NCBI GenBank assembly: GCA_002495325.1
Contig: DAEQ01000002.1
Span: forward strand, 112,877 to 176,876
Source of the DNA: Methanomassiliicoccaceae archaeon UBA593
GTDB taxonomy: Archaea > Thermoplasmatota > Thermoplasmata > Methanomassiliicoccales > Methanomethylophilaceae
Length of the DNA: 64,000 nt
Reading direction: 5' to 3'
The notes under the pieces are model-generated. The model worked only from the letters and a program-made list of their open reading frames with translations, had not been told where the DNA came from and made no database searches. The position numbers and the translations under genes are program-made. Below, piece by piece: positions 9,912-45,840 of this stretch. Numbering within the stretch: the first letter of the stretch is position 1; each line of letters opens with the position of its first letter.

Positions 9912-10148
9912 TCAGAGAACGGCGATGCTGACCACGTTGCTGCCGCGGAGAACCACGGTGCCTAGCCGCCGGTCTTCCCGGTCGGGAACGTGCTCGGCAG
10001 TGTCTTCCAGAGACATGTTCATGTACTCATCGCAGCCGGTGAGCTTCCCTTCAAGGGTCCTTCCGTCCTTGAGCAGCAACGAAATCCGTTTGCCGACGAA
10101 TTTTTCCAGTAAAGCCTGAGGCATGATCATGCTTATCGTCCCGTTCAT
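9912..10148 (-). CDS. Sm-like (Lsm/SmAP) RNA-binding protein
   Basis: GKL.G.DEYMN Sm1 motif and LG.VVLRG.N Sm2 motif. Confidence 0.9.
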   Translation of the reverse strand: MNGTISMIMPQALLEKFVGKRISLLLKDGRTLEGKLTGCDEYMNMSLEDTAEHVPDREDRRLGTVVLRGSNVVSIAVL

Positions 10149-10209
10149 GCTCGGCCGTGATTAAAAGCTTTGGTACATTCTTTGCGCGCGTCAGAGGGAA
10201 AACCCCGGA

Positions 10210-10767
10210 TCAGGCCGGCGGTTCCTGGCCGTCGTCGGCGGCGGGCGCGGGCGGCGGGACCTGCGCGGCCCGTTCCCGAGCCTGCTTCTCGATCCATTTC
10301 TTGATGTCCGCCTTGCGGGTGCTGCCGAGACCGAAGGCCTCGCTGAACCGGGCGGTGGTCGTCAGTTCAAAGGTCTGCCCGGCTGGCCTGGCGCTGACTA
10401 GCCCCCGTTCCTTCAGCAGCCGAACGTCGTCATAGGTCCGGGGGCCGCGGACGGTCACGAGCTTGGACTGCAGGACCGGCTGGTTGTAGGCGATAGTGCT
10501 GAGCGTGCGCATGGCGCCGCCCGGCAGGTCGGGGCGGGCGAACAGGTCGGTAAAGCGGGCACAGTCGGGCCGCAGTATCATGCGGTACTCGCCGGCCGCG
10601 GAGGAGATGATGACCGCAGAGTCCCGCAGGTCGTACTCCCGCCGCAGCTCGCGCAGGGCATAGGTGACCGCGCTCTCGTCCAGGCCGGTGCGGGCGGCGA
10701 TGTCGGCCGGGCGCAGCGGGCCGGTGGCCGCGAACAGCGCTGCCTCCACCGCGGTCTTGTCCTCCAT
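10210..10767 (-). CDS. scpB: segregation and condensation protein B
   Basis: VEAALFA, TLSTIAYNQPV, VRG and TT.RF...FGL motifs; follows scpA. Confidence 0.9.
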   Translation of the reverse strand: MEDKTAVEAALFAATGPLRPADIAARTGLDESAVTYALRELRREYDLRDSAVIISSAAGEYRMILRPDCARFTDLFARPDLPGGAMRTLSTIAYNQPVLQSKLVTVRGPRTYDDVRLLKERGLVSARPAGQTFELTTTARFSEAFGLGSTRKADIKKWIEKQARERAAQVPPPAPAADDGQEPPA

Positions 10768-10769
10768 GG

Positions 10770-11606
10770 TCAGGCCGCCGCCGGCGTCGGGACGTCTGAC
10801 CGCACGGTGATGATGATGTCGCCGTACGGCAGAGTCTCCTGACTGACGTCCAGCCGGCCGTCGCGGACCAGGTGCAGGACGGCGACGAACACCGTGATAT
10901 CGTCCTTGAGCGAGTCGTCATAGAATACGGTCAGCCGCTGGGGGCCGGCGCCGCCGGCCCGGATCCGCTGCCACACCCGTTCGACGGCCTGTTCGTCGTC
11001 CTCGTCGTGGGCCTTGTTGTCGAAGACCCGCGGTTCCTTGGCCTTCAGCTTGGCTCCGGCCGCTGCCCTGGCGCGGGCGGTCTCGGCCTCCTGCCGGGCG
11101 TCCTCGAAGGCGTCCAGCAGGTCCATGACGGTTACCGGCCGGGCCTCATCCCGGGCGTAGGCCCGGGTGAACGCCACGTCTGGCACGACCATCGGGTCCT
11201 CGTCAGCGAAGTCGAAGTCCTCGTCTATGACCTCCGGGGCCGGCGGGTCTGCCGCCCGGCAGGTGGCCGCCGACTGCAGGTTGAGGATCTCCCAGGCCAT
11301 CAGAAGCAGGCGGCCGGCAACGATCATGTCGAACCGGCCGTCGGCCACTTTGGCCGAGTAGAGCCTGACGAACTCCTCCAGGTCGATCGCCCAGGGGTCC
11401 AGGCCCTTCTCCAGTACCAGGCTGAAGACCGCCCGGATCGATTCGTCGACAGGGTCGGCGAGCCGTTCGCCCGCCGCCGCGTGCCGGAGGATGTCCAGGT
11501 AGCCGTTGACGCGGCCGAGCGTCTGCGCATCCTCGGCCAGCGCCTTCTGGAACAGCAGGTGCTGCTCCAGCGATTCCGTGTTCATTGCTTCCGTATCCAT
11601 TCCCAT
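10770..11606 (-). CDS. scpA: segregation and condensation protein A (kleisin)
   Basis: LDPWAIDL motif; C-terminal F.AVLHL....L...Q....GDI winged helix; directly after smc. Confidence 0.85.
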   Translation of the reverse strand: MGMDTEAMNTESLEQHLLFQKALAEDAQTLGRVNGYLDILRHAAAGERLADPVDESIRAVFSLVLEKGLDPWAIDLEEFVRLYSAKVADGRFDMIVAGRLLLMAWEILNLQSAATCRAADPPAPEVIDEDFDFADEDPMVVPDVAFTRAYARDEARPVTVMDLLDAFEDARQEAETARARAAAGAKLKAKEPRVFDNKAHDEDDEQAVERVWQRIRAGGAGPQRLTVFYDDSLKDDITVFVAVLHLVRDGRLDVSQETLPYGDIIITVRSDVPTPAAA

Positions 11607-11619
11607 CCCTCTTTAAGTT

Positions 11620-14600
11620 TCAGGATGACACCGACGGGACCTGCTGGCGCCGCCGGGCCTCCTCTTCGTATTTCGAGACCTCCGCCAGATCCGGCTGGAT
11701 GATCACCTTGCTCACCCCGCTGGGCGGCCGGGTCACGCCGATCAGGTGGTCCGCCAGCGTCAGAGTGACCTTCCGTAGCGACACCTGAATGAACTGGGCC
11801 GTGGCCGAGCTCTCCTTGATCCGCTTTGCCACCAGTTCCGCGTTCACCGCGTCCAGGAACATGTCTACCTCGTCGAGCACATAGAACGGCGAGGGCTGGT
11901 ATTCCTGGATGGCAAAGATGAACGACAGCGCCGTGAGCGATTTCTCCCCGCCGGAGAGCGCCTCCAGGCGGAGCATCTTCCCGTTCCGGGGCTTGGCATT
12001 GATCTGCAGTCCGCCCTGGAAAGGGTCGTCCGGGTCGTCAAGGGCCATGTAGCTCTCGCCGCCGCCGGACAGTTTACTGTAAATGGCCTTGAAATTGGCC
12101 GCGACCGCGTTGTAGGACTGCATGAACAGCCCCTTCTTGCGGGCGGTGAGCTCTTTGGCCAGCTGGTCGAGCTCCCTGATCCGCACCTGGAGCTGATCAC
12201 ACTGCTGGACCAGTTTGTCCAGTTCGGCCTTCCGGCTATCATAGTCCTCGATGGCGCGCAGATTGACGTTGCCGAACGCCGTGACCCGGCCGTCGGCGGT
12301 GCGGATGGTCCGCCGCAGTTCATCCTCGGACGGGATCGGCTCTGGCACCGGCACGGTGATGGCCCTGCGGTCCTCCGCCAGCTGCGCCAAGCGTGCCTGG
12401 GAGATCTCGGCCTGGGCCTCCTGCGACTGCCGGACGCCCTCCTGCGTCTCCAGGTCCTTCTGGGCCTGGCTGACGGCGGCGTCGAGCTGATAGCCCCGGT
12501 CGCTGAGGACGTCCCGGGCAGACCGGAGACCTTCGATGCCCTGCTCCATCTGACTGACGATGTTTTTGAACGCTTCCAGCCGAACGGTGCACTCCTTGAT
12601 CTCTCCGTCGTACTTGGCAATGCCCGCTGCGGCGGCCGCCAGTTTCTTGGCAACCTCGGCCAGCTGCCCGTCCAGTGCCTTTTTCTGGGCATCGGCGCCG
12701 GCCATATCGGCCTGGACGGCACCTATCTGTCCCTGCAGGTCGTTCAGTATCCGAGCGGCGTCTGCCGAAGCGGTGCGGGCCTGCTGGATCCGCTCCTGCA
12801 GATCGGCCGGAGCGATCTCCTGCAGCCGGGCGCGCTTGGTGTCCCGCTCGTCCCGCAGCGCCTGCAGCGCTGCGGCAGTGGCGGTCTGGTCCGCCTGCGC
12901 CTTGACCAGCGCCTGCTCGGCTCCGGCGGCCTCGGCGGCGGCTGTGCGGGACTCCTCCTGTTTCTTTGTAAGTTCCTGCTTGACCAGCACCAGTTTTGCT
13001 TCGGCACCGGCAATGTCGCCCTTCGCACCGGCACCTTTGGTGAGCGCCTCGCGCATCCGGTCGTCCGCAGCGCGGATGTCGTCGCGGAGCTGCCGTAGCT
13101 CGGTCTGCAGCGCGGACAGCGCATCGTTGGCCTTGCGCAGCTCCTCGCCGGCCCGGTCCAGTTCCGTCTGGGAAGAGGCACCGAACTTCGGCAGGCTGCG
13201 CTGGTTGACAGTGCCGCCGACCATGGCGCCGGAGGCCTCGACGAGCTCGCCGGCCCGGGTGACCAGACGGACGCCGCCCATCAGTTCCCGGGCCTGCTGC
13301 AACGTCTCTACGACCAGGGTATCTCCGAACACGTACCAAAAGACGTTCTGATAGCGGGGGTCGTAGGTCATGAGGTCGGTGGCATACCCGACGGTGCGCT
13401 TGACGACCATGATCGCCTTGGCCCGGGGCTTCCCGGGCATCATCTTGCTGAGCGGCAGGAAAGTGACCCGGCCCAGCCCGTTTTTCTTAAGATATGCGAT
13501 GCAGTCCGCGGCCGTCTGGTCATTGTCGACGACGACCGCCTGCATCTTACCGCCCGCCGCGACCGAGAGCGCGGTCTCGAAACCGGGCTCGGCGGTGGCC
13601 AGTTCCGCGACGGTGCCGCTGATGCCCCGCATCTCGCCCCGGTCGCGCAGGGCCATGATCGCCGCAACGGCCTGGCTGCCGCGGTTGTAATTCTCGGAGA
13701 CCCGCTTCTCGGCAGAGAGCCGGCTGAACTCGGCCTCGCGGCTGTTCACCGCATCCTTGAGCTGTGCTTCCTGCTTCTCCAGGCCGCCCTCCTTCTGCTT
13801 GAGCGCTACGACCTGTTTGCCGAGCTCGTCAGTGGCGTTCTGCGGACCGGCGGCCCGTTTGATGGACTGCAGGTTCCAATCGGCATCCTTTACCGCGAAC
13901 TGCGCGTTGCCAAGTGCCTCCTCGGCTGTGCTTTGGGCGCGGTGCTTCTCGCCTGCGGCGGCCGCGGCGGCGGCCTCGGCGGCCCTGGCGCTCTGGTCGG
14001 CGTTCGCGGCCTGGTCGATGAGCCGGTCGAGTTCGCTCAGCCGGGTCTGCAGTTTCGTGAGCTCGCCGCCGTGGGCGGCGGTCTCGTCGTTGATCTTCTT
14101 CTCGGCGGCCGCGGCGGCTTCCGCTTCCCTCTGTGCGGCCTCCTGTTTGATGCGCAGGCCCGCGAGGTTCTCCTCGGCCGCCCGGTACTCCTTCCGATTG
14201 TCGGCGATGGATTCCGTGAATTGATCGCGGAAGCCTTCCTGGGCCTCCCGGTCCTCAGCGGCCCGGTCGCGCCGGTCCTTGGCCGTGGCAAGCGCGACCC
14301 TGGCATCCTCAACGTCGCTTTTGGTCTTCTTGTACTCCGGTCCGACGCTCGCTTCGATCTCCGCCTCTTTGGCCTCGAGCGCCTGCTTGTTGGCCTCCCG
14401 GTCCTTAAGGGCGGCCTCCTTGTCCGCCTTCAGCTTTGCCAGTTTCTGGTCGATCTTGACGATGAACTCGCCGATCGCCCCGAGCTTGGCCTGCTCGTTA
14501 AGCTGCTGCCGCACTACCAGCTGATTCTTGGCGGTGTCCAGGGCGGCTTTGGCCTCCAGATACTGCTGCGCCTGCACCCGGTCGCGCTCCAGCGCTTTAA

Positions 14601-15216: not shown

Positions 15217-15368
15217 CCCGTTTACCCCCTGACGGGGCTCTGCGGACCTCTGATCCGCCGTGCATCCCATTCTGTCCGCGCGCGGGCGCAGATAAATGAC
15301 AGTACGAAATCCACACTATTTAAAACAATGCCGTTATAACACCGAAAGACAGGGAATTCTGGCTCTGT

Positions 15369-16151
15369 TCAGCGGAATTCGGCCAGCCACGGGATAAGGT
15401 CGCGCACCGAGTCTACGACCCACGTCGGATGCATGCCCGACTGTTCCAGCATGGTACGGTCGGTCTCCTCCGAAAGCACCAGAATCGACCTGGCCCCCGC
15501 GTCGACGGCCATGTGCATATCGGCGGACAGCCGGTCGCCGACCATGATGACATCCGCAACTGGCACACCCATATCGGCGGCGGCCATGTCCAGCATCAGC
15601 CGGTGGGGCTTGCCGACGGCCGTGGCCTTCTTTCCGGTCAGGAACTCAAACAGCCGGATGAACGGCCCGATGCCCACGTCGTAGCCGTCTTCGGTGGGAC
15701 AGACGTCATCGGGGTGGATGGCGATCAGTTCCGCCCCTGCCTGAAGGTAATGGTAGCCGGCATTGAGTTTTTCGTAATCGACGGTGGTGTCGAAGGCCAG
15801 CAGTACGATGTCGGGCCGGTGTCCGCCGGTGGAGATCGGTACTCCGGCGGCGGCGATCTCCGCACAGACCGCGGGGGTGGCAATCGGCCACACCGTCTTG
15901 CCGGGCCGCCGGTCTTTAAGGAAGCGGATAGCGGCGACCGCCGAGGACAGGATGTCCTTCTCGCCCACGCCGAAGCCCATCCGGTTCAGACGTACGGCAT
16001 AGAACGCTGGCACATGGGCTGAATTGTTGGTGACGAACCGAAACGGAAGTCTCCTAGCACGCAGTGCGGCCATGAATTCCCGGACACCCGGGATCGGCCG
16101 GTCGCCTCTGCAGAGCATCCCGTCAATGCTGAGTGCAAAGGCGGCGGTCAA
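15369..16151 (-). CDS. HAD-IIA family hydrolase (NagD-like) with atypical motif I
   Basis: FVTNNS, GKP and MVGDRL..D motifs; probable TTG start overlapping the UDG stop; motif I reads LSIDG. Confidence 0.75.
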   Translation of the reverse strand: MTAAFALSIDGMLCRGDRPIPGVREFMAALRARRLPFRFVTNNSAHVPAFYAVRLNRMGFGVGEKDILSSAVAAIRFLKDRRPGKTVWPIATPAVCAEIAAAGVPISTGGHRPDIVLLAFDTTVDYEKLNAGYHYLQAGAELIAIHPDDVCPTEDGYDVGIGPFIRLFEFLTGKKATAVGKPHRLMLDMAAADMGVPVADVIMVGDRLSADMHMAVDAGARSILVLSEETDRTMLEQSGMHPTWVVDSVRDLIPWLAEFR

Positions 16152-16687
16152 CTGAGGAACTCCTCCTTGACCATAATCAGCGTGAGCTTGAGCTGCTCCC
16201 GCGCGTCGGGCTTGTAGACACAGGCCATCGGATGATAGGTCGGGATGAACAGAATGTCCCGGTCCTTGATCCGGATGTGCTGCCGGGTATTGACGATCTG
16301 GGACATTGGTCCTTCGTACCCCAGCAGGTCCTTCACGGCCGACTTGCCGAGACCCACGATGACCTTCCGGTCGTACAGTTCGCTGTCGAGGAACGGCCGG
16401 CAGGCGGCCATCTCCTCGGGCATTGGGATCCGGTTCACCGGCGGCCGGCACTTCACCGTGTTGGTGATCAGGATCTGCGACCGCGGGAGCCCGATCTCTT
16501 CCAGGATCTTGTTGAGGATCTGCCCAGCGCGTCCGACGAACGGTGTACCCTGCAGGTCTTCGTTCTCGCCCGGCGCCTCGCCGACCAGGGCTACCGGCGA
16601 GTTTTTGTCACCCGTGGGCAGCACCAGATGGGTCCGCTTCCGGTAAAGGTCGCAGAGACGGCAGTCCGCTTCCGGTTCGGTCATCAT
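16148..16687 (-). CDS. uracil-DNA glycosylase family 4 (Fe-S)
   Basis: CRLC, GEAPG.NED..G.PFVGRAG, VKCRPP.NR.P and YHP. Confidence 0.92.
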   Translation of the reverse strand: MMTEPEADCRLCDLYRKRTHLVLPTGDKNSPVALVGEAPGENEDLQGTPFVGRAGQILNKILEEIGLPRSQILITNTVKCRPPVNRIPMPEEMAACRPFLDSELYDRKVIVGLGKSAVKDLLGYEGPMSQIVNTRQHIRIKDRDILFIPTYHPMACVYKPDAREQLKLTLIMVKEEFLS

Positions 16688-17232
16688 TGTCCGACGTCCT
16701 TCAGCAGGTCAGAACCCTTGACCAGAGCTGTCAGTTCCACATCCATGGCCGCCAGGTTCTCCCGGCCGCCGCTCTCCCGGTCGATGACAGACATGACCCG
16801 GCCGACCTTGGCGCCCTCGCTGCGGAGCTCGGTCACGGCCTTCATGCTCGAGCCGGCCGTCGTGATGACGTCTTCGACCACCAGCACACTGTCGCCCGGC
16901 CGCAGGTCGCCCTCTACCAGTTTGCCGGTGCCGTGGTCCTTGCGCTCCTTCCGGACCATCAGTAACGGCAGGTCTGTCTCCAGGGACAGCGCGGTAGCCA
17001 GCGGGATCGAGCCCAGAACAACGCCCGCCACGTGCTGCGGATGAAGACCCAGTTCCCTGATCTTCGCGGCCATCGCCTGCGCGATCAGACGCAGGACGGC
17101 CGGATTGGTGCTGGCCTTCTTGATATCGATATAATAGCTGCTCTTCGCGCCGGAAGCCAGCGTGAACTCTCCGAACTGCAGCGCGCCGCAGTTCTCCAAT
17201 GCTTTTTTGAGATCTTCCGTACGAATCACCAC
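16684..17232 (-). CDS. pyrE: orotate phosphoribosyltransferase
   Basis: FTLASG..S.YYID, RKERKDHG and VVEDVITTAGS PRPP-binding motif. Confidence 0.94.
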   Translation of the reverse strand: MVIRTEDLKKALENCGALQFGEFTLASGAKSSYYIDIKKASTNPAVLRLIAQAMAAKIRELGLHPQHVAGVVLGSIPLATALSLETDLPLLMVRKERKDHGTGKLVEGDLRPGDSVLVVEDVITTAGSSMKAVTELRSEGAKVGRVMSVIDRESGGRENLAAMDVELTALVKGSDLLKDVGQ

Positions 17233-17804
17233 GGTTCTTTCTTTAAATGCAGTTTATAGGCGACAATGTTGACGCCCCGGTGGATAGCAAACATGATCAC
17301 GAGCAAGAACAGAAGGGCGCAGATATGCCACCCCGCGACGTATGTGCTGTATACCCAATGCGGGTTGAAGATGGCCGTGACCAGGAACGCGCCGAATACA
17401 AAATCGTACTGGTCGAGGATCGGCGCCTTGGCACCCCGTTCCAGTCCCAGCCGCCGCTTGATGAAGGCACCCATCAGGTCCCCCAGTACTGCACCGAACG
17501 ACAGACAGGTGATGACCCGCAGGTTACCCCACCAACCGCCGTAGCCCCAGTAGTTCGTCGGGTCCCAGATCGAGGCGATACAGATCAGAATAAGTCCGAG
17601 TACAATGCCCGAGAGCGCTCCGCCGAAGAACCCGCGCCAGGATTTGCCGTCGCCGAAGATGCGCTTGCCGCGCCAGGTCTTTCCGAAGTCCATCTTGGCT
17701 GTGGAACCCCGGCCGAACAGCACCGCTGCCGAATTGGGCAGCATGGCCGGCAGGAAGAGCCAGAGTCCGACGAACATGTACTCGATGACGGTTACGGCGT
17801 CCAT
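17226..17804 (-). CDS. carS: CDP-archaeol synthase
   Basis: LPAM.PN, GDGKSWRG, GDL.GAFIKRRLG and LDQYDF; membrane protein. Confidence 0.9.
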   Translation of the reverse strand: MDAVTVIEYMFVGLWLFLPAMLPNSAAVLFGRGSTAKMDFGKTWRGKRIFGDGKSWRGFFGGALSGIVLGLILICIASIWDPTNYWGYGGWWGNLRVITCLSFGAVLGDLMGAFIKRRLGLERGAKAPILDQYDFVFGAFLVTAIFNPHWVYSTYVAGWHICALLFLLVIMFAIHRGVNIVAYKLHLKKEPW

Positions 17805-18338
17805 TGGAGTCGCATAGGCGGTTTGTCGTTTATAGTTTCGCGCCCATACTTACAATGCAAAAGACCGGGGCCGCGGGATCAAAGATACGGTTCCCGAATG
17901 CGTCTGCCACAGGTTCAATGCGATTCCGTTCGAAGAATGGGACCAATACTTCAGTTAACGATTTACCGAAATTTCTGCCTGCATCTGCTGGAAAGTTCCA
18001 ACTTTACAACATCTCAGCTCTCAGATTCTGACGCTTTGTAATTTTAAACCTGCTATTTCTGCTGAGAAGATTTCTGCGCAGACGAATCAGGCCTTCGCAG
18101 TGCGTGAGTACATATGCTTGTTAAAAAACCGACATCGGATTGACTCGGCCAATAATAGGAGGGATAGACCAGACAGTGAAACACTGTGGCAAGTGACATT
18201 ACCGCGCCATCATTTTGGCAGATGCCGCCATCGATGTCACCAGAAAAACGCCTGCATGCTTATGTCGGCCGCCCAGGGGCAATGGCTTCAGTCTTCCCGG
18301 ACCCAAGATAGATAACCGCCGGCATCCTTCTCTGATGT

Positions 18339-18797
18339 ATGCTTGTACTAGACAGCTCTGCCCTTTTTTCGCTAGACCAGCTTCCGGAGGAGGACTCCGT
18401 GTGCCCGCCCGGCGTCGTGAAGGAACTGACGAAATACAAGGACCCCCGGCTGGCGCTCTGGGGCGACCTGCTGCACGTGTCCGAATGCACCAAAGTCTCA
18501 GTCGCCAAGGTCGAGGAGGCCGCCCGGAAGACCGGCGACATCGGCCGGCTGTCCCCGGTGGATATCACCGTCCTGGCACTGGCGCTTGACGTCCATGGCA
18601 CCGTGCTTACCGACGATTACTCCATCCAGAATACCGCCCGCGTACTGGGCATCCCGTACCGCGCCGTGGGACAGGCCGGGATCACCCGCAAGGAGAAATG
18701 GAACTGGCAGTGCACCGGCTGCGGTAAGTGGTTCAAAGAGAAGTACGACGAGTGCCCGATCTGCGGCTCGCCGCTGCGGAGCCACCGGAAGCGGCGA
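18339..18797 (+). CDS. nob1: Nob1-type PIN + zinc-ribbon rRNA maturation endonuclease (expected stop is CGA; literal ORF runs to 20144)
   Basis: VLDSSA, LS.VD..VLALA, LTDDYSIQN.A, C.GC...CPICG zinc ribbon. Confidence 0.85.
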
Positions 18798-19892
18798 TCA
18801 CGGGAACAGATGCTGACCGCGGATGAGCTTGGCCATCCGCCGGGTGCCGAGGATATCCATGCACCAGCGGGTGCGGGTGTCGCTGCCGAACGCGAAGGTG
18901 TCGGCGAGCTTCTTGTTGTCCGCCGCGATGTGCAGCGGCTTGTAGAGCACATCCCGCCAGGCCTGCTCGTAGTCCGTCAGCGGACGACCGTTCTTCACAT
19001 GGTCCGCCGCGATCTGTCCGGCGATACGGCCGGCGATCATCGCCAGCGGTACACCGCCGCCGTTCACCGAAAGGACCTGCCCGGCGGCATCGCCGACGAC
19101 CAGCCCGTTGCCGACCACCGTCTGTTTGATGGGGCCCTCGCTGGGGACGTATTTGCCTTCGAGCTTGGTGGTGATCTTGAAATCGTGAAGTTCGGCGAAC
19201 TTGGCAAAGTACTCGCTGAGCGTGCCGTTGGAGAACGCAGGCGAAAAGCCGACGCCCACATTCGCCCGGTGGTCCTTCGGGATGATCCAGCTGTAGGCTC
19301 CCGGCGCGATACCGCCGAAGAACATCTGGACACTGGGTTCGAACTCGCCCTCGACCTGCGCGGTAACCGCAGGATACGGATTGCGGTTGGCCGCCAGCCC
19401 CAGGCTCTGCGCCACCTTGGAACCCGGCCCGTCGGCACCGATGAGCACCTTGTACTCGACCGTCCCGGCCGTTGTGTCGGCCTTTCCGTCGGTGATCCGC
19501 CGGAACATGGTAGACGTCCGCAGCTCGGCCCCCGCCTCCTGCGCCCGCTGCGCCAGATGCTGGTCGAAGCGGTCGCGGTCGGTGGTATAGGCAGTGAACG
19601 GCAGCAGCCGTGTCTTGCCTTTGGGGTCGGTGAGCGTGATGCCGGCGATCTCCCGCCGGTGAAGATTCGCCGGCGTGCCGAACAGGGTCTCGCCGTCTGT
19701 CAGCTTGGGGAACATACCCCGGATTTCCGCCAGCGACGGGATAAGCTCACCGCAGCGGACGGGCACACCCACCTGCGGACGGCGCTCCAGGAACAGAACG
19801 GAAACGCCTTTTTCTGCGGCGTAGCGGGCGGCTACGCTGCCGGCCGGACCGGAGCCCACCACCAGCACGTCGGTCTTGATCGTCGCGGCCAT
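18798..19892 (-). CDS. geranylgeranyl reductase family flavoprotein (DGGGPL reductase)
   Basis: VVGSGPAGS, PVRCGE, GADG, YSWIIPK and GDAAGQV...GGG. Confidence 0.88.
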   Translation of the reverse strand: MAATIKTDVLVVGSGPAGSVAARYAAEKGVSVLFLERRPQVGVPVRCGELIPSLAEIRGMFPKLTDGETLFGTPANLHRREIAGITLTDPKGKTRLLPFTAYTTDRDRFDQHLAQRAQEAGAELRTSTMFRRITDGKADTTAGTVEYKVLIGADGPGSKVAQSLGLAANRNPYPAVTAQVEGEFEPSVQMFFGGIAPGAYSWIIPKDHRANVGVGFSPAFSNGTLSEYFAKFAELHDFKITTKLEGKYVPSEGPIKQTVVGNGLVVGDAAGQVLSVNGGGVPLAMIAGRIAGQIAADHVKNGRPLTDYEQAWRDVLYKPLHIAADNKKLADTFAFGSDTRTRWCMDILGTRRMAKLIRGQHLFP

Positions 19893-19897
19893 GCATA

Positions 19898-20878
19898 TCA
19901 CCGGTCGCGGGCCGCGATGAAACGGGCCAGCTCGATCAGGGAATCCTTGTATTCGGAGGCCGGCAGCGGCTCCAGCAGGGGCACGGCGTCCTCCACCAGC
20001 ACTTTGGCCTTGTCCAGACACCGGGCGGCGGCATCGGTTTTGGCGATGAGCGCAATGGCCTCGGCAGCATCCGCGGACGTGGCATGCGGGTCCTCGAAAA
20101 CCTCCCGCACCCGAGGTCCGACCTGCGGGTCCTCGATGGCATAGATGGTCGGCAGGGTCGGCTTGCCCTCGAGGATGTCGTTGCCGGGCTTCTTCCCGGT
20201 GTTGTCCTCGTAACCGATGACGTCCAGGACATCGTCCACGATCTGGAAGGCCTGGCCGGTCCGAAAGGCAAACTCGCCCACCCGGTCGACTATTTCCATT
20301 TCGTCGGATGCCGCCAGGTACGCACCGCACTTTGCGGCGCACTCGATGAGCCGGGCGGTCTTGCCACTGATGATGTTCATGTACTGCGGTTCGCCCACGG
20401 CGACGTTCCGTTCGTAGCGTTTCTGGGAGAACTCCCCGGTACCCATGGCAGAAGCGGCCTCGACAATGTAGTCGACGATGGCCGGTGCCGCGGAACCGAT
20501 TAGCCGGAAGCCGAGCGCGAACATGTAGTCGCCGGCGACAATGGATTTGCCCAGCGAATACTCTTTGTACAGGGCCTTGGCGCCCCGCCGCACCTCGCCC
20601 TGGTCATTGATGTCGTCGTGAATCAGGGTGGCATTGTGAATCAGTTCGATGGCCGCGCCGACGTCGATCGCCCGTTTGGCGTCACGGCCGCCGCACGAAT
20701 AATAGGAAAGGATAGTGATCGCGGGCCGAATCCGTTTACCGTGATTTGACAGGACGTATTGGCACATCTCCCGCAGCTGGGGGTTGTCGGAACGCGTGAC
20801 ATCATTCATCACGGCTTCCACCCGCTCCAGTTCGGATGAGATACACTCATGCCAGGCCTGTACCATGGATTGCGTCAT
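19898..20878 (-). CDS. trans-polyprenyl diphosphate synthase (possibly C25 or longer)
   Basis: GKRIRP, DDIND (FARM), RRG, KTA and FQIVDDVLD (SARM). Confidence 0.9.
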   Translation of the reverse strand: MTQSMVQAWHECISSELERVEAVMNDVTRSDNPQLREMCQYVLSNHGKRIRPAITILSYYSCGGRDAKRAIDVGAAIELIHNATLIHDDINDQGEVRRGAKALYKEYSLGKSIVAGDYMFALGFRLIGSAAPAIVDYIVEAASAMGTGEFSQKRYERNVAVGEPQYMNIISGKTARLIECAAKCGAYLAASDEMEIVDRVGEFAFRTGQAFQIVDDVLDVIGYEDNTGKKPGNDILEGKPTLPTIYAIEDPQVGPRVREVFEDPHATSADAAEAIALIAKTDAAARCLDKAKVLVEDAVPLLEPLPASEYKDSLIELARFIAARDR

Positions 20879-20929
20879 GGTCAGAGCGTACTTAAACGTT
20901 ATCGCTTGCTCCGCCAGGCCCCCGCCGGC

Positions 20930-22240
20930 TCAGCGGAAGTCGGCCATTGTCGGCTGTCCGCAGCGGAAAATCCGTAGACCGTTGATCAGCCCGTCGAGCA
21001 GGTGGCGCGCCCCGCCGAGACCGACGAGACTGGCATCGGTGAACGGGGCCCGGTCGGGGTACGGCGGGGCGATGGCCAAACAGGCAGCCTCAGGATTGGC
21101 CGTGTGATAGGCTGCGGCAGCGAAACCGTCAGTCAGCACCGCCCGGCAGTCGGGCGGATCCCGACGGCCTAGCGCGCCGCCGCATCCGCAACCGTCCAGG
21201 AACGCGGCTACTGCCGGCCGGTGCGGAGCCTCTGCCCGCTCGGTCAGGACAACCCCTGCCGGCAGCAGGCAAAACCAGTCGCGGAGCCACTCCGCCAGCG
21301 GCAGCACCGTCGACGGCATGCCGGCAAGGAACATCCCGTAACCGTGCAGACTGCCGGCGGCCTTGTCACTGCTGGCCAGGATACGGGCCACCGCCTGCTC
21401 TTCCGCCGTCACGGCCGTCAAGGCCGGTGCCGGGTCGAGACCGAGCACCGCAGCGGTCTCCGTCAGGAATGACCGGATCGCAGGATATCCGATCGGGGCA
21501 CCGTGCGCCGGGACCAGTGTCGGTATGCCTAGTTCCCGGCTGTACCAGGCGGCAGTATCGGCAGCATATTCCGGATGTATGAGGATGTTCAGATCGGCTG
21601 CGCCGGAAGCAGCGATCTCCTCCTTGCCGCTGCCGCAGCCCGGACAGGCGATGACGTCCGCACCCAGCAGTCCGATCAGCCCGGTCAGATTCTGACGGCC
21701 GAAAGACCAGCCACTGTCGCCGTAACTGTAGCCGAGCAGATTCACGGCCGGTCTGCCGCGGTGTCCCTGGACCGGCCGCCAATGCTGCACGATGGCCGTA
21801 ACGGTCCGGTCGAAACCCTCGCCGCAGGTAAGCGATGCCAGGTCCGGATCGGCGAGGACCGTCCGCTCTGCAAATCCGGAGCGTTCCACAGCAGTCCGCC
21901 GGTCGGTCACCTGCACCGAGGCACCCAGCGTGTCGACCAGTACCGCATCGGTCTGCCCTGCTGCGGACAGCACCGAACGCAGACCTTCGGCAATCTTGTT
22001 CCCCGCGCCGAAGATGATGTCGTCAGCGTTCAGATAAGTGCAGGGCAGCCGCGTCTGCCGGCTGAAGTATTTCGATCTGCAGCAGCCGGGGTCTTCGCCT
22101 TCGTAAGTGCCGGTCAGTTCCCGGACGAGAATCTGGGCCCGGGAACGGCAGCCGCCCGGCCCGTTGATAAGTGCCGTCATGCCGGGAAAGCCTTCGGCCG
22201 CCAGCACCGCGCCGAGGAATCCGTCTGGTTCCGTGTTCAT
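20930..22240 (-). CDS. nitrogenase component 1-like protein (NifK/BchB-like subunit, group IV)
   Basis: PDG..GA, INGPGGC and PCTYL..DDIIFG motifs; central NLLG....D....L..L....G..V and A..NILI segments. Confidence 0.8.
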   Translation of the reverse strand: MNTEPDGFLGAVLAAEGFPGMTALINGPGGCRSRAQILVRELTGTYEGEDPGCCRSKYFSRQTRLPCTYLNADDIIFGAGNKIAEGLRSVLSAAGQTDAVLVDTLGASVQVTDRRTAVERSGFAERTVLADPDLASLTCGEGFDRTVTAIVQHWRPVQGHRGRPAVNLLGYSYGDSGWSFGRQNLTGLIGLLGADVIACPGCGSGKEEIAASGAADLNILIHPEYAADTAAWYSRELGIPTLVPAHGAPIGYPAIRSFLTETAAVLGLDPAPALTAVTAEEQAVARILASSDKAAGSLHGYGMFLAGMPSTVLPLAEWLRDWFCLLPAGVVLTERAEAPHRPAVAAFLDGCGCGGALGRRDPPDCRAVLTDGFAAAAYHTANPEAACLAIAPPYPDRAPFTDASLVGLGGARHLLDGLINGLRIFRCGQPTMADFR

Positions 22241-24348
22241 ATTTCCACCTTCCTCCAGCCTTCCTGCGGCGGGATCTTCAGGGCCGCGGCCATCCGCCGG
22301 ACCCAGCTCAGCGCCCCGGTCACGCCCAGATAGGGCGTCGACAGTCCGGTCCAGCGGAAACCCTGCCGGCCGACCCGCAGGTCGGACGAGAGCAGAAGGT
22401 CGGCTCCGTACCGCCGGGCCACATCCGGCAGCCCGCAGAGCTCTACCTCGCGGAAGCGCGGGATCTCCGGATGTCCGGTCCGGTCGGGCCGCAGGTCGGT
22501 GATACGGTCCCGCCAGGCGGCTATGCCGACGATGTCGGTGTCCAGGTCCTGAAGGATGGGGACGACCCAGCTCAGGTCGCTGTCAGACCGGGTATAGAAC
22601 AGCACTTTTTTGCCGGCGAGCTGCGGCCGGAACTCCGCCAATCCGGCCTGATAACGGTCCCTGACCTGCTGCTTAACTGCCATACCCCGTTCCGGCTGAT
22701 CGGTCAGAACGGCCAGCGCGTCGATCCATTCGTATTCACCCGCCAGGCCGAACCGGGCGTTGATTACCTTGCACGGCCTTTTACCGGCCAGGAATACGTC
22801 GGCGATCCGCAGGTCGAGCGGATGGTCGGAAATCGCCAGGTTGTACTGGGCCGTCCCCGCCTGCCGGATCTGATCTGTCGTCACCTTTTCGATGAAAATG
22901 GCGTTCAGTTTCAGACCGAAGGCCGCCAGCAGTCCGTATATGAAACGGCGGTTCTCCGGCCGGGTCAGATAGTTCGGCTCGAACATGAAGAGGTTGACGG
23001 TGTGCGGGACCGTCGGCAGGCCCCAGTCGATCAGCCCGGCCAGGGCCTGCAGCGCCCCGCCGTAACCGCCGAACTTACTGCTCAGGAACTCGGGGTCGGC
23101 CGCTACCGGTGTGACCGTCACGCCCGACAGATGGATCTGCGCACAGACGGCCGGCAGGTCGGTGCCAATGGTCTCCGGCGTGCAGGTGGGGACCACGAAG
23201 ATCTCCCGGAACCCGTCGCCCGCCGCTCTCGCCACGGCCGCCTTGATAATCGCGGTATCGCCGCCGAAGGTGGTCCGTCCGTCCATTTCCGTACTGTAAA
23301 GATTGGTCGGGGCCGGCGACCGACCGCCGGCGGACAGAACCGCCTGCCGCCGCCAGGCGTACTCCATCAGGAAGGCACAGTTGCGGGCTCCGTGCAGGAC
23401 GATGGCCGCGTCACTGACCGCCAGCAGCAATTCCACCGCCCCGTGGGAGGTACAGGCCGGCATGACGAAATCGCCTTTGTAACATACGCGCCGTTCCCGG
23501 TCGTAGGCATCGAAACGGCAGGCCGTTCGTACCGCCGGCATACCCGGGTCGGTCACCGGACGGCCGGCGGCAATCTCGGTCATGGCCTTATCGCCCAGCG
23601 GCCTGGGCATCACTGGCCGGAGCTGTCCCGTCATCGCTGCCTGCACCTGGTCCGCCAGATGCGTCAGTTCCCGGGTGGCCGCCGAATCCGGAAAGGCCTC
23701 CGCTTCCGGCCGGCCGAACCCTTCGGCCTGTGAGAACAGCGGACTGCGGGTTATACGGCCGAGGATCGGTATCTGCACCGCCCGGGCAAACTCCCGCACC
23801 CGGCCCTCGTCTTCAGGGTTCCGGCTGTTCAGCACCAGGCCCAGCATGCAGGACGTTCCGTTAAGGTTGCGCAGGCCACGCAGGATGTTATTAGCCGCAT
23901 ATACCGACATGAACTCTTCCGACGTGACAATCATTATGCCGTCCACATTCTCCCGCCGCATAGGCACCGAGAACCCGCCGCAGACCACGTCCCCTAGCAC
24001 ATCGCAGATGCGCAGATCGGTGTCCGCCGGCGTGTGCTGTTCGACATATGTGAACATGGCAAGCATCCCCTTGCCCGCACAGCCGATGCCGGGCTCTGCA
24101 CCGCCGCACTCGACACAGCGGACACCGTTGATACCGTCCTGTACGACCCCGTCCTCCCGGTGCTCGGTCAGCGCATCCAGGAAAGTGCTCTGGGACACCC
24201 CGCCGGTCAGCAGCCGGGTGGAATCGTGCTTCGGGTCGCAGCCTACGTGGAGAACCTTCAGTCCGCGGCGGGACAGCAGATATGAGAGATTGGCGGCCAG
24301 CAGCGATTTGCCGACCCCGCCTTTCCCGTAGACGGCGATCTTGTACAT
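22237..24348 (-). CDS. fusion of NifH-like Fe protein and NifD-like component 1 domain (group IV nitrogenase-like reductase)
   Basis: GKGGVGKS, GCDPKHDST, EPGIGCAG, DVLGDVVCGGF and YAANNI, followed by ACTSHGA, HGARNC and PTCTPETIGTD. Confidence 0.88.
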   Translation of the reverse strand: MYKIAVYGKGGVGKSLLAANLSYLLSRRGLKVLHVGCDPKHDSTRLLTGGVSQSTFLDALTEHREDGVVQDGINGVRCVECGGAEPGIGCAGKGMLAMFTYVEQHTPADTDLRICDVLGDVVCGGFSVPMRRENVDGIMIVTSEEFMSVYAANNILRGLRNLNGTSCMLGLVLNSRNPEDEGRVREFARAVQIPILGRITRSPLFSQAEGFGRPEAEAFPDSAATRELTHLADQVQAAMTGQLRPVMPRPLGDKAMTEIAAGRPVTDPGMPAVRTACRFDAYDRERRVCYKGDFVMPACTSHGAVELLLAVSDAAIVLHGARNCAFLMEYAWRRQAVLSAGGRSPAPTNLYSTEMDGRTTFGGDTAIIKAAVARAAGDGFREIFVVPTCTPETIGTDLPAVCAQIHLSGVTVTPVAADPEFLSSKFGGYGGALQALAGLIDWGLPTVPHTVNLFMFEPNYLTRPENRRFIYGLLAAFGLKLNAIFIEKVTTDQIRQAGTAQYNLAISDHPLDLRIADVFLAGKRPCKVINARFGLAGEYEWIDALAVLTDQPERGMAVKQQVRDRYQAGLAEFRPQLAGKKVLFYTRSDSDLSWVVPILQDLDTDIVGIAAWRDRITDLRPDRTGHPEIPRFREVELCGLPDVARRYGADLLLSSDLRVGRQGFRWTGLSTPYLGVTGALSWVRRMAAALKIPPQEGWRKVEI

Positions 24349-24364: not shown

Positions 24365-24387
24365 TGATTGGATATATAAACCAATCA
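24365..24387 (-). promoter_or_regulatory. TATA box (TTTATATA on minus strand) enclosed by perfect inverted repeat TGATTGG-N9-CCAATCA
   Basis: Read directly from sequence; TATA about 25-32 nt upstream of the nifH-like ATG. Confidence 0.65.
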
Positions 24388-24431: not shown

Positions 24432-24449
24432 CCGGCCCCGGGGGGCCGG
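24432..24449 (-). terminator. GC hairpin downstream of fpoN (probable fpo operon terminator)
   Basis: ccggcccc-gg-ggggccgg followed on minus strand by tcccttttg. Confidence 0.55.
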
Positions 24450-44623: not shown

Positions 44624-44632
44624 GCTCTTGCC

Positions 44633-45565: not shown

Positions 45566-45660
45566 GGAATCGACATGGCGGACCAGTGTTAAAAACGTAC
45601 GCGAACGGCGAGCGCGCCGGCGCGTATCCACGCACCCGTAACAGTTAGCACAGACAATGC

Positions 45661-45840
45661 TCATTCATGCTTTTGCTTCCGGATGAGATACAGCACCCCG
45701 AACGACAGGATCAAGCATACCGCCAGCATTCCGATAAGTGCCAGATCTAGATTTCCCAGCAATGCTCCGATCACGGCAACGGCAATCACAACCAGAACCA
45801 GGATCAATAAAACCACGGCCGCCCTTTGCGTCTTTTCCAC
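45661..45840 (-). CDS. small two-TM membrane protein
   Basis: Two long hydrophobic stretches with basic ends; GTG start about 35 nt below a TATA-like TTATAATTA. Confidence 0.5.
   Translation of the reverse strand: MEKTQRAAVVLLILVLVVIAVAVIGALLGNLDLALIGMLAVCLILSFGVLYLIRKQKHE

What the first reader, a model, noticed from the sequence alone, without database searches (positions are those of the whole stretch)
20930..24348. Uncharacterised two-gene nitrogenase-like reductase: NifH-NifD fusion plus NifK-like partner
Seen: a 703-aa fusion whose H domain keeps the P-loop and both [4Fe-4S] cysteines (GCAG, VVCGG), with Lys in place of NifH Arg100. The D-like domain keeps all three P-cluster-type cysteines (ACTSHG, HGARNC, PTC) but lacks equivalents of the FeMo-co ligands Cys275 and His442. 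The coupled 436-aa partner has Asp (PDG) at the first ligand site, Cys at the second (NGPGGC), none at the third, and extra CC/PCT cysteines. No nifB/E/N, cfb, bch or mar genes are adjacent. Established: group IV homologs reduce tetrapyrroles (DPOR, COR, CfbCD) or cleave C-S bonds (MarHDK). CfbD is a homodimer without a K subunit, so this is not the F430 reductase. Inference: a DPOR-like asymmetric Fe-S ATP-driven reductase with an unknown substrate (tetrapyrrole/corrinoid, organosulfur or isoprenoid), inserted between the fpo operon and lipid genes. It is the best candidate for a novel system in this window.
Basis: partly seen in the sequence, partly recalled or inferred. Interest (0 to 1): 0.85.

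Follow-up and report, generated by a model that had tools for sequence, protein, structure and literature searches.

The report
Fused nitrogenase-like reductase, function unknown
A methane-producing archaeon carries a real, intact relative of nitrogenase whose electron-donor and catalytic parts are fused into one protein; it cannot fix nitrogen, belongs to an uncharacterised clade, and in related organisms it sits beside vitamin-B12/haem-type importers and metal chelatases, which suggests it reduces a tetrapyrrole-type cofactor.

Summary
Window 22237-24348(-) encodes a 703-aa NifH-like/NifD-like fusion. It overlaps by 4 nt (ATGA) a 436-aa NifK-like partner at 20930-22240(-). The organism is a Methanomethylophilus-like methanogen (Methanomassiliicoccales).

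The pair is not CfbCD, DPOR, COR, MAR or a nitrogenase. It meets no curated family cutoff. Only 4 of the 6 P-cluster ligand sites carry Cys, and the FeMo-co/L-cluster site is absent. In crude H, D and K trees it falls in a coherent clade of H-D (and H-H-D) fusions with a K partner, found across many anaerobes. The literature I could search mentions the fusion only in passing and assigns no function.

The "DPOR-like" reading is only partly right. The partner has Cys where DPOR has its Asp ligand, and its conserved Asp sits at a different site, so the ligand set resembles NifEN more (and, from memory, COR).

The fpo and lipid neighbours are specific to this species and are separated by their own predicted promoters. 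In relatives the pair is repeatedly co-operonic with FecCD/BtuCDF-type importers and CobN/ChlI/ChlD chelatases, and in one locus lies near CbiZ. My best reading is an ATP-driven reductase with a simple [4Fe-4S] cluster acting on a tetrapyrrole or corrinoid. The substrate is inferred, not shown.

The parts
24432..24449 (-). GC-rich hairpin (CCGGCCCCCCGGGGCCGG) followed by T-tracts, just after the fpoN stop. It is a terminator-like element separating the fpo operon from the pair.
   Evidence: This is a pattern match plus established knowledge of oligo-T archaeal terminators; its function is inferred.
24373..24380 (-). Archaeal TATA box TTTATATA, 24 nt upstream of ATG 24348. It predicts an own promoter and a leaderless or near-leaderless mRNA.
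   Evidence: The spacing fits the usual position of about -26/-27 relative to the transcription start site (established knowledge); inferred, with no RNA data.
22237..24348 (-). Fusion gene, 703 aa plus stop: NifH-like Fe-protein domain, linker, then NifD/E-like domain.
23563..24348 (-). H (Fe-protein) domain, residues 1-262. P-loop G8-S15 at 24304-24327; cluster Cys90 at 24079-24081; Cys123 at 23980-23982; Lys93 (Arg100 site) at 24070-24072.
   Evidence: Pfam Fer4_NifH 2e-64. Profile scores: NifH 282 bits, MarH 273, BchL 214. Foldseek TM 0.88 to NifH. Alignment; coordinates.
23479..23562 (-). Inter-domain linker, roughly residues 263-290. Partly low confidence in the model (about 275-277 below pLDDT 50).
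   Evidence: (pLDDT profile).
22240..23478 (-). D-like domain, residues 291-703, with three invariant cluster Cys: C299 (23452-23454), C324 (23377-23379) and C389 (23182-23184). His319 is nearly invariant. There is no Cys275 or His442 equivalent.
   Evidence: Best profile matches are NifE (117 and 96 bits), a NifD-like chain (94) and MarD (90).
20930..22240 (-). K-like partner gene, 436 aa plus stop, translationally coupled through the ATGA overlap at 22237-22240. Asp6 at 22223-22225; Cys31 at 22148-22150; Cys67 at 22040-22042; Cys427 at 20960-20962.
   Evidence: Best profile matches are MarK (98 bits), BchB (75) and NifK (53).
20889..20896 (-). TATA-like box TTTAAGTA, 22 nt upstream of the second ATG (20866) of the polyprenyl synthase gene. 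It predicts a separate promoter for the downstream lipid genes. It marks a boundary and is not part of the system.
   Evidence: plus the alternative gene call of 322 aa; inferred.

Best explanation
The two genes encode a complete nitrogenase-like (NFL) reductase in two polypeptides. The first is an Fe-protein (NifH-type) ATPase domain fused to the N-terminus of a NifD/E-like subunit. The second is a NifK/N-like partner made from the same, probably leaderless, transcript.

Likely mechanism (inferred by homology):
1. Two H domains pair across a shared [4Fe-4S] cluster held by Cys90 and Cys123.
2. MgATP binding and hydrolysis gate one-electron transfers to a single simple cluster at the D/K interface. 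That cluster would be held by D-domain Cys299, Cys324 and Cys389 plus partner Cys31. The family-invariant partner residues Asp6 and Cys67 are nearby candidates for a role.
3. Electrons then pass to an organic substrate bound in the D/K cavity. There is no P-cluster and no FeMo-co or L-cluster site.

The enzyme belongs to a distinct, uncharacterised clade of H-D (or H-H-D) fusions with a K partner, spread among strict anaerobes.

The most likely substrate class is a tetrapyrrole-type macrocycle: a corrinoid, a corrinoid precursor, or another (metallo)porphyrinoid. It would be either reduced on the ring or reduced at the metal, in a pathway that in relatives also uses BtuCDF/FecCD-type importers and a CobN/ChlI/ChlD class I (de)chelatase.

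What is shown: the domain architecture, the ligand pattern, clade membership and the gene-neighbourhood statistics. What is inferred: cluster type, electron path and substrate class.
For: Architecture and intact catalytic motifs.

The family is coherent. The partner is always immediately downstream in about 22 loci. The clade is monophyletic in NJ trees of H, D and K, apart from Nif, Bch, Cfb and the unfused systems.

Simple-cluster signature: 3+1 Cys, with no Cys275 or His442 equivalents in any of 18 family members. No NifB or radical-SAM enrichment was seen nearby.

Tetrapyrrole/chelate context in relatives:
- L011: ABC, fusion, partner, FecCD, FecCD in one apparent operon.
- L022 (Bathyarchaeia): BtuF-like, FecCD, ABC, fusion, partner.
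- L013: CobN, fusion, partner.
- L008: ChlI, ChlD, fusion, partner.
- L003: two paralogous pairs among six BtuF-like genes, FecCD/ABC and two CbiZ genes.
- L001 (M. alvi): CobN plus FecCD/ABC within about 9 kb.

An unbiased Pfam census of 121 ORFs within 4 kb of 20 loci gave ABC_tran 15, FecCD 7, Peripla_BP_2 6, and CobN and ChlI-type 2 each.

Precedents. The three biochemically characterised NFL enzymes known to use only [4Fe-4S] catalytic clusters (DPOR, COR, CfbCD) all reduce tetrapyrroles (Chem Rev 2026, PMC13474568). In the Roseobacter photosynthesis cluster, bchN-bchB-bchH-bchL interleaves an NFL with a CobN-family chelatase of the same pathway.

btuC is unusually abundant and diverse in Methanomassiliicoccales (PMC10804542).
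Against: - The window's own copy has no transporter, chelatase or corrinoid gene within +/-10 kb or among the other ORFs I sampled.
- About half of the surveyed loci, including most bacterial subclade (c) loci, show no such context.
- The linkage is strongest in sister subclade (b), not in the window's subclade (a).
- FecCD/BtuF-type importers also carry siderophores.
- By sequence, the D and K parts are nearer to NifE, MarD and MarK than to the tetrapyrrole enzymes BchN, BchB or CfbD.
- No expression data were found.
- No cluster or activity has been measured. The trees are distance-based and lack Mar, Isr, Nfa and Group VI references.
Confidence: 0.5

Rival explanations
1. An organosulfur C-S bond-cleaving NFL, like methylthio-alkane reductase (MarHDK) or isethionate reductase (IsrHDK). 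It would supply sulfur, or process the methylated sulfur compounds that Methanomassiliicoccales use.
For: The partner's best solved relative is MarK (98 bits). The D domain scores about as well on MarD (90 bits) as on NifD. The 2026 review notes that Group IV NFLs of unknown function are generally linked to sulfur metabolism. Gastrointestinal Methanomassiliicoccales are predicted to use methanethiol and DMS.
Against: MAR uses a full P-cluster and an L-like cluster held by a Cys/His pair, plus MarB or NifB. Here only 4 of 6 P-cluster Cys are present, the Cys/His sites are absent in all 18 family members, and no radical-SAM or NifB gene is enriched nearby. No sulfur-metabolism genes recur in the neighbourhoods.
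Confidence: 0.12
2. A reductase for an imported iron chelate (ferric siderophore or haem). It would provide very low-potential electrons to release iron, working with FecCD-type importers and, for haem, with a CobN/HmuS-like dechelatase.
For: FecCD, Peripla_BP_2 and ABC_tran are the most enriched specific neighbours. An isochorismatase-family gene lies next to the pair in L003. CobN-family HmuS is a proven anaerobic haem dechelatase that needs a reductant, and its many archaeal homologs are unexplained (PMC12583661).
Against: The CbiZ genes in L003, and the unusual abundance and diversity of btuC reported for this order, point to corrinoids rather than iron chelates. These methanogens have no known haem requirement (my own knowledge). 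Ordinary Fe(III) or haem reduction does not need an ATP-driven donor. For haem, this reading overlaps with the main explanation.
Confidence: 0.1
3. A NifEN-like scaffold or maturase with its own fused NifH. It would assemble or insert a complex Fe-S cluster, for example the L-type clusters of the MCR activation complex.
For: The D domain's best curated and structural sequence matches are to NifE. The 3+1 Cys site resembles the NifEN [4Fe-4S] site; my assignment of NifN Cys44 to this site comes from memory. Methanogens need NifB-made clusters (PMC12176620).
Against: The NifE Cys250 / NifD Cys275 column is variable and the His442 region is deleted in the whole family. The family is common in non-methanogenic bacteria such as Clostridium tetanomorphum, Desulfobacterota, Spirochaetota and Myxococcota. 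The NifE model score is 55 bits against a cutoff of 505.
Confidence: 0.06
4. An isoprenoid or lipid reductase acting with the adjacent polyprenyl synthase and geranylgeranyl reductase. This is one of the options the first reader listed.
For: In the window the genes are co-directional and adjacent: pair, then IdsA-like gene, then a GGR-family gene, then CarS.
Against: This adjacency is seen only in contigs of this species and in none of about 20 other loci. Separate TATA boxes are predicted for the pair and for the synthase.
Confidence: 0.04
5. A fused variant of the F430 enzyme CfbCD, or a functional nitrogenase (Nfa-like).
For: The H domain's top NCBIfam hit is CfbC (239 bits). The host is a methanogen that needs F430.
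Against: The CfbC score is below its 402-bit cutoff. The D domain does not hit the CfbD model. A K partner is present, whereas CfbD is a homodimer. A canonical cfb cluster exists separately in the order. For nitrogenase or Nfa: 4 of 6 P-cluster Cys, no cofactor ligands and no NifB.
Confidence: 0.02

Closest known systems
NifEN with NifH (nitrogenase cofactor maturase)
   Same: The D domain's best sequence matches are to NifE. The inter-subunit cluster site has three Cys from the D/E-like chain and one Cys from the K/N-like chain, at the HG..GC position. It is an ATP-dependent Fe-protein partner system.
   Different: No equivalent of the L-cluster ligand Cys250. Scores lie far below the NifE cutoff (55 vs 505 bits). 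The H domain is covalently fused. The family is widespread in non-diazotrophs, and no nifB is associated.
DPOR (BchL/BchN/BchB) and COR (BchX/BchY/BchZ), Group V
   Same: An NFL with a simple [4Fe-4S] catalytic cluster and no complex cofactor. Ligation is asymmetric, with three Cys from the N/Y-like chain. Genes for a CobN-family chelatase are adjacent in some loci, as in bchNB-bchH-bchL.
   Different: Cys31 occupies the BchB Asp36 position. The conserved Asp is at another site. H, D and K all score lower on Bch proteins than on Nif and Mar proteins and cluster apart from them. All Bch equivalog cutoffs are missed. The hosts are not phototrophs.
[quoted passage not shown]
   Same: A methanogen NFL with only [4Fe-4S] clusters and a tetrapyrrole substrate. 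The H domain's top curated hit is CfbC.
   Different: CfbD is a homodimer with two Cys per monomer and no K subunit. Here there is a three-Cys D domain plus a K partner. The D domain gives no hit to the CfbD model. A separate canonical cfb cluster exists in the order.
Methylthio-alkane reductase MarHDK, Group IV-C
   Same: The closest solved relative of the partner is MarK, and MarD and MarH are close for the D and H domains. It is a heterotetramer-type D/K architecture.
   Different: MAR carries a P-cluster and an L-like cluster and needs MarB or NifB. Those ligands and genes are absent here.
Group VI NFL (Elusimicrobia, Gracilibacteria, Myxococcales; function unknown, tetrapyrrole proposed)
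   Same: At most 4 of the 6 P-cluster Cys. No Cys275 or His442. No NifB. About 40% identity of H to NifH. A tetrapyrrole-type genomic context. The H-H-D members of this clade come from Myxococcota/Polyangiaceae, a group in which Group VI was reported.
   Different: Group VI loci are described as rich in radical-SAM genes, which is not seen here. No fusion is described for Group VI. No named Elusimicrobia protein is among the top 120 relatives of the subclade (c) partner. I had no Group VI reference sequences, so membership is untested.

Membership tests
Nitrogenase superfamily / NFL two-component reductase | Fe-protein with Walker A, switch I/II and two cluster Cys (the C97 and C132 sites), plus a component-1 pair of the Oxidored_nitro fold | tested here: met
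   for the H domain; for the D and K parts.
Nitrogenase proper (Nif/Vnf/Anf) and Nfa (Group IV-A) | Six P-cluster Cys (three on D, three on K) | tested here: not met
   D has 3 of 3. K has Asp, Cys and Gly at the three sites, giving 4 of 6 in total.
Nitrogenase proper (Nif/Vnf/Anf), Nfa and MAR | A Cys275/His442-type ligand pair for FeMo-co or an L-like cluster, and an associated NifB/MarB radical-SAM gene | tested here: not met
   The Cys column is variable and the His segment is deleted in 18 of 18 family members. No NifB or radical-SAM enrichment near 20 loci, and none within +/-10 kb in the window.
CfbCD (Group IV-B) | The catalytic subunit matches the CfbD equivalog TIGR03282 (cutoff 268 bits), and the reductase matches CfbC NF033200 (cutoff 402 bits) | tested here: not met
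   The D domain does not hit TIGR03282 at E<=0.01, and the H domain scores 239 bits. Positive control: the L037 CfbD scores 394 bits.
CfbCD (Group IV-B) | A homodimeric catalytic subunit with no K-type partner | tested here: not met
   A K-like partner is translationally coupled to the fusion and conserved in every locus.
DPOR (Group V) | BchL/BchN/BchB equivalog scores; NB-cluster ligated by three Cys plus Asp36 of BchB | tested here: not met
   Scores are 145, 17-25 and 41 bits against cutoffs of 345, 324-420 and 490. Cys31 lies at the Asp36 position.
COR (Group V) | BchX/BchY/BchZ equivalog scores | tested here: not met
   BchX scores 151 bits against 331 and BchZ 20 against 529. The family clusters apart from BchY and BchZ in the NJ trees.
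NifEN maturase | NifE/NifN equivalog scores and an L-cluster ligand at the Cys250 position | tested here: not met
   NifE scores 55 bits against 505. The Cys250 column is not conserved. Only the 3+1 Cys [4Fe-4S]-type site is shared.
ISR (Group IV-F) | Clusters with IsrD/IsrK and has an adjacent IsrB radical-SAM gene in a sulfonate-utilisation locus | tested here: inconclusive
   No radical-SAM or sulfonate genes were seen next to the pair. No Isr reference sequences were available for a phylogeny.
Group VI NFL | Phylogenetic placement with the Elusimicrobia Group VI NifH/D/K sequences | not testable with these tools
   I could not obtain reference sequences. The descriptive traits match (<=4 Cys, no cofactor ligands, no NifB). 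Radical-SAM richness is absent, and no named Elusimicrobia relatives were found.
H-D fusion + K clade (the family defined here) | NifH domain fused upstream of a three-Cys D domain; an overlapping downstream K partner with Asp / Cys / no Cys at the three ligand sites and an invariant LPC(T/S) Cys | tested here: met
   The window falls in subclade (a) with M. alvi.

The most novel reading that the evidence does not exclude
The clade is a new functional class of nitrogenase-like enzyme. It would deliver ATP-driven, very low-potential electrons to an imported or late-stage metallo-tetrapyrrole (a corrinoid, a corrinoid precursor or a haem-like macrocycle), working with CobN/ChlI/ChlD-type (de)chelatases and BtuCDF-type importers. 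Possible roles include an anaerobic salvage or remodelling route, or a non-orthologous replacement for a B12-pathway step such as CbiJ-type ring reduction. This would also explain the so-far unexplained CobN/HmuS homologs of archaea.
Probability: 0.3. Interest if true: 0.8.

Novelty: new variant of a known kind. Interest (0 to 1): 0.6.

Why it matters
Nitrogenase-like enzymes carry out some of biology's hardest reductions, and each clade with a newly assigned function (F430 synthesis, methylthio-alkane and isethionate cleavage) has revealed new chemistry. The 2026 Chem Rev review names the uncharacterised NFL groups as the main open frontier and says that gene context has been of little help so far.

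This clade is compact: two genes, with the Fe protein fused to the catalytic subunit. It is present in culturable species such as Methanomethylophilus alvi, Clostridium tetanomorphum, Oxobacter pfennigii, Methanosarcina and Methanolobus. Here it gains a concrete, testable context: B12/haem-type importers and CobN-type chelatases.

If the tetrapyrrole link holds, it would bear on how gut and digester methanogens obtain or process the corrinoids that their methyl-reducing methanogenesis depends on. It would also bear on the role of archaeal CobN/HmuS homologs.

The H-D and H-H-D fusions also raise a structural question, namely Fe-protein to catalytic-core stoichiometry, which has relevance for nitrogenase engineering.

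Tried and rejected
- **CfbC-CfbD fusion (my first suspicion).** Rejected. The D domain gives no hit to the CfbD model, a K partner is present, and a separate canonical cfb cluster exists in the order.
- **Lipid or fpo functional link.** Rejected. The synteny is species-specific and separate promoters are predicted.
- **NifEN-like L-cluster scaffold.** Disfavoured by the absence of a Cys250 equivalent.
- **Group VI membership.** I tried to test this through taxon names. The H-H-D forms are from Polyangiaceae, but no named Elusimicrobia appear among the relatives, so the result is inconclusive.
- **Expression evidence.** No RNA runs hold the window sequence.
- **Fold search of the fusion model.** It returned only NifH hits and nothing informative for the D domain.
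- **Literature.** Six full-text searches and reading of ten papers found only passing mentions of the fusion. The North et al. 2020 definition of Groups IV-D and IV-E was not available in the library.
- **'cbiJ and cbiK missing in half of Methanomassiliicoccales genomes'.** I keep this only as a lead. It may reflect KEGG annotation gaps, and I could not test genome-wide co-occurrence.
- **ORF calling.** My crude caller picked antisense ORFs in this high-GC DNA (for example window 18339-20144 on the + strand). I replaced these by hand before the census.

Full report
**1. What is there**

ORF listing confirms two co-directional genes on the minus strand. One is a 703-aa ORF from ATG 24348 to the stop at 22237-22239. 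The other is a 436-aa ORF from ATG 22240 to the stop at 20930-20932. They overlap by 4 nt, ATGA.

Pfam assigns Fer4_NifH to residues 3-259 and Oxidored_nitro to residues 299-655 of the first protein, and Oxidored_nitro to residues 8-321 of the second. Against NCBIfam, no curated equivalog cutoff is met. The H domain scores best on CfbC (239 bits, cutoff 402) and NifH (217, cutoff 394). The D domain scores best on NifE (55, cutoff 505). The partner scores best on BchB (41, cutoff 490).

The nearest database protein, at 99% identity, is annotated 'nitrogenase component 1 [Methanomethylophilus sp.]'. The same sequence occurs in fermentation, landfill and sludge metagenomes.

**2. Motifs**

- NifH/D/K/E/N from the Acetobacterium paludosum and Labilibacter marinus nif clusters (L059, L077).
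- CfbC and CfbD from Ca. Methanarcanum (L037).
- BchL/N/B/X/Y/Z from a Roseobacter litoralis plasmid (L093, L094).

The H domain keeps the P-loop, switch I (CDPKHDST), Cys90 at the NifH C97 site and Cys123 at the C132 site. Lys replaces Arg100, but only in the window's subclade.

The D domain has Cys299, Cys324 and Cys389 at the NifD C62, C88 and C154 sites. Apart from near-invariant His319, these are the only conserved Cys or His residues in 18 family members. The NifD Cys275 / NifE Cys250 column is variable, and the His442 segment is deleted.

The partner has Asp6 at the NifK C70 site, Cys31 at the C95 site and Gly at the C153 site. A profile alignment to the BchB D36C crystal variant (3aet) puts Cys31 exactly at BchB residue 36. 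The ligand set, three Cys from D plus one Cys from K at the HG..GC motif, is the NifEN type. I also recall it as the COR type, but I did not check that here.

The 'CC' pair is not conserved. Cys67 (LPCT) is invariant across the fused family, and Cys427 is nearly invariant among close relatives.

**3. Not any characterised family**

A Methanomassiliicoccales genome (L037) carries a canonical cfbC-cfbE-cfbD-cfbA-cfbB cluster. Its CfbD scores 394 bits on TIGR03282 (cutoff 268). The window's D domain does not hit that model at all. Borrel et al. 2014 likewise list a separate NflD/MurF-like/NifH-like cluster in three genomes of the order, and mention a 'fused nifH/nifE' gene elsewhere.

Profile searches against solved structures give these scores:
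- D domain: NifE 117 and 96 bits, a NifD-like chain 94, MarD 90, VnfD 86. BchN is not among the 60 listed.
- Partner: MarK 98, BchB 75, NifK 53.
- H domain: NifH 282, MarH 273, BchL 214.

The AlphaFold model of the fusion is confident (mean pLDDT 85) apart from a partly low-confidence linker. Its H domain superposes on NifH with TM 0.88.

**4. The family**

Full-length H-D fusions of about 700 aa are numerous in Methanomassiliicoccales and Thermoplasmata. They also occur in Clostridium tetanomorphum, Peptococcaceae, Oscillospiraceae, Bathyarchaeia and Methanosarcina. About 1,090-aa relatives are H-H-D triple fusions from Polyangiaceae/Myxococcota.

Relatives of the subclade (c) partner come from Desulfobacterota, Planctomycetota, Spirochaetota, Oxobacter, Eubacterium, Methanosarcina and Methanolobus. 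An exhaustive profile search with the partner finds about 203 representative clusters at E<=1e-30 among 1.84 billion.

In every locus examined, a partner of about 430 aa follows immediately.

Neighbour-joining trees of H, D and K each recover the fused family as one clade, apart from Nif D/E/K/N, Bch, CfbC/D and unfused systems. These trees are crude and lack Mar, Isr, Nfa and Group VI references. The clade has three subclades:
- (a) window, M. alvi, L003a, L004, L007.
- (b) L003b, L008, L010-L013.
- (c) the bacterial, Methanosarcina, Bathyarchaeia and H-H-D members.

**5. Context**

In the window the pair lies between fpoN and a polyprenyl synthase, a GGR-family gene and CarS. This synteny recurs only in contigs of the same species.

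After the fpoN stop there is a GC hairpin with T-tracts. A perfect TATA box, TTTATATA (24380-24373), lies 24 nt upstream of ATG 24348. This predicts an own promoter and a leaderless mRNA, and it favours the 703-aa start. The polyprenyl synthase gene has its own TATA-like box with the same spacing to its second ATG. These are inferences from the sequence. No RNA data were found.

The ORFs I sampled from the rest of the window are housekeeping, with no FecCD, CobN or corrinoid genes among them.

In relatives the picture is different:
- L011: ABC, fusion, partner, FecCD, FecCD.
- L022 (Bathyarchaeia): BtuF-like, FecCD, ABC, fusion, partner.
- L013: CobN, fusion, partner.
- L008: ChlI, ChlD, fusion, partner.
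- L012: divergent BtuF/FecCD/ABC.
- L010 and L001 (M. alvi): CobN plus FecCD/ABC nearby.
- L003: two paralogous pairs, one of subclade (a) and one of (b), among six BtuF-like genes, FecCD/ABC and two CbiZ genes.

A census of 121 ORFs within 4 kb of 20 loci ranks ABC_tran (15), FecCD (7) and Peripla_BP_2 (6) on top, with CobN and ChlI-type at 2 each. There is no radical-SAM or NifB enrichment. About half of the loci, including most of subclade (c), show no such context.

**6. Interpretation**

The architecture and ligand pattern argue for an ATP-driven reductase with a single simple inter-subunit Fe-S cluster and no complex cofactor. This excludes N2 fixation and MAR-type chemistry as currently understood.

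According to the 2026 review, the three biochemically characterised NFLs that use only [4Fe-4S] clusters (DPOR, COR, CfbCD) all reduce tetrapyrroles. The Roseobacter cluster bchN-bchB-bchH-bchL is a precedent for interleaving an NFL with a CobN-family chelatase of one pathway.

Three further points support a tetrapyrrole substrate. The operon links to BtuCDF/FecCD importers and CobN/ChlID are repeated, and one locus also holds CbiZ. btuC is reported to be abundant and diverse in this order. The HmuS paper states that archaeal CobN/HmuS homologs are unexplained.

I therefore favour a tetrapyrrole or corrinoid substrate at about 0.5. Whether the reduction is at the ring or at the metal is open. 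Rival readings, with my confidence in each, are organosulfur cleavage (0.12), iron-chelate reduction (0.10), a NifEN-like maturase (0.06), lipid reduction (0.04) and CfbCD or nitrogenase (0.02).

**7. Novelty**

The fusion itself has been noted twice: in Borrel 2014, and in the 2024 archaeal fusion survey as 'cluster 443'. The major NFL review does not mention fusions or Methanomassiliicoccales. I found no functional proposal and no description of the transporter/chelatase association.

Descriptively the clade resembles Group VI, with at most 4 Cys, no cofactor ligands and no NifB. However, it lacks the radical-SAM context reported for Group VI, and I could not test membership.

I rate it a new variant of a known kind, of moderate to high interest. 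The window's own copy carries little contextual information.

Noticed in passing
L009:10001-13303 (also L020:2627-5884): Relatives of about 1,090 aa are NifH-NifH-NifD-like triple fusions. Two complete Fe-protein domains sit in tandem, forming a covalent 'dimer', followed by the D domain and a Gly-rich tail, with a K partner downstream. Named cluster members are from Polyangiaceae (Myxococcota). This gives 2 H per D/K, against 1 H per D/K in the window's form, which raises a stoichiometry question.
   Followed up: partly
L003:1-22109: One Methanomassiliicoccaceae contig holds two paralogous fusion+partner pairs, 10001-13410 on the + strand (subclade a) and 15241-18674 on the - strand (subclade b). 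They are surrounded by six Peripla_BP_2 (BtuF-like) genes, FecCD/ABC, two CbiZ genes and an isochorismatase-family gene.
   Followed up: partly
L037:51-15196: In Ca. Methanarcanum hacksteinii the canonical F430 cluster cfbC-cfbE-cfbD-cfbA(double-length)-cfbB lies divergently next to FecCD-ABC-ChlI-ChlD-CobN. A class I chelatase and a B12/haem-type importer therefore sit beside the F430 genes, although CfbA is the known Ni-chelatase.
   Followed up: no
L032:7889-19123 and L055:10001-17570: The gut Negativicutes Phascolarctobacterium faecium and Dialister succinatiphilus carry unfused NifH-like, D-like and K-like genes followed directly by a CobN homolog, with FecCD/ABC alongside in L032 and a ChlI homolog further downstream in L055. 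Their K-like subunits keep Cys at all three ligand sites. They form a clade of their own, distinct from the fused family.
   Followed up: partly
L040:5122-8099: In a Methanoregula MAG, an H protein that passes the CfbC cutoff (411 bits against 402) is followed by a short D-like gene (350 aa) and a K-like gene (385 aa). Neither is CfbD (30-40 bits against a 268-bit cutoff). A CfbC-grade reductase thus sits next to a small, uncharacterised D/K pair.
   Followed up: no
window 41607-45664 (-): The archaeal AMP-salvage trio in a row: an AMP phosphorylase-like gene (Glycos_transf_3/PYNP_C), type III RuBisCO, and a ribose-1,5-bisphosphate isomerase-like gene (IF-2B family). A second IF-2B family gene lies at 21-821 (+).
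   Followed up: no
window 35949-37682 (-): A 577-aa radical SAM protein with a B12-binding domain, of unknown role, 11.6 kb from the pair. It is not NifB-like in architecture, because it has the B12 domain.
   Followed up: no
window 18339-20144 (+): A 601-aa ORF antisense to the GGR-family and polyprenyl synthase genes. It is a high-GC artefact, since the Pfam-supported genes are on the minus strand. Several other long antisense ORFs in 20-24 kb are of the same kind.
   Followed up: yes
L017:7492-10828: In a Peptococcaceae MAG the fusion+partner pair is followed, after a pseudouridine synthase gene, by an extra Oxidored_nitro gene (438 aa) and, about 1.2 kb further on, a stand-alone NifH-like gene (270 aa).
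   Followed up: no
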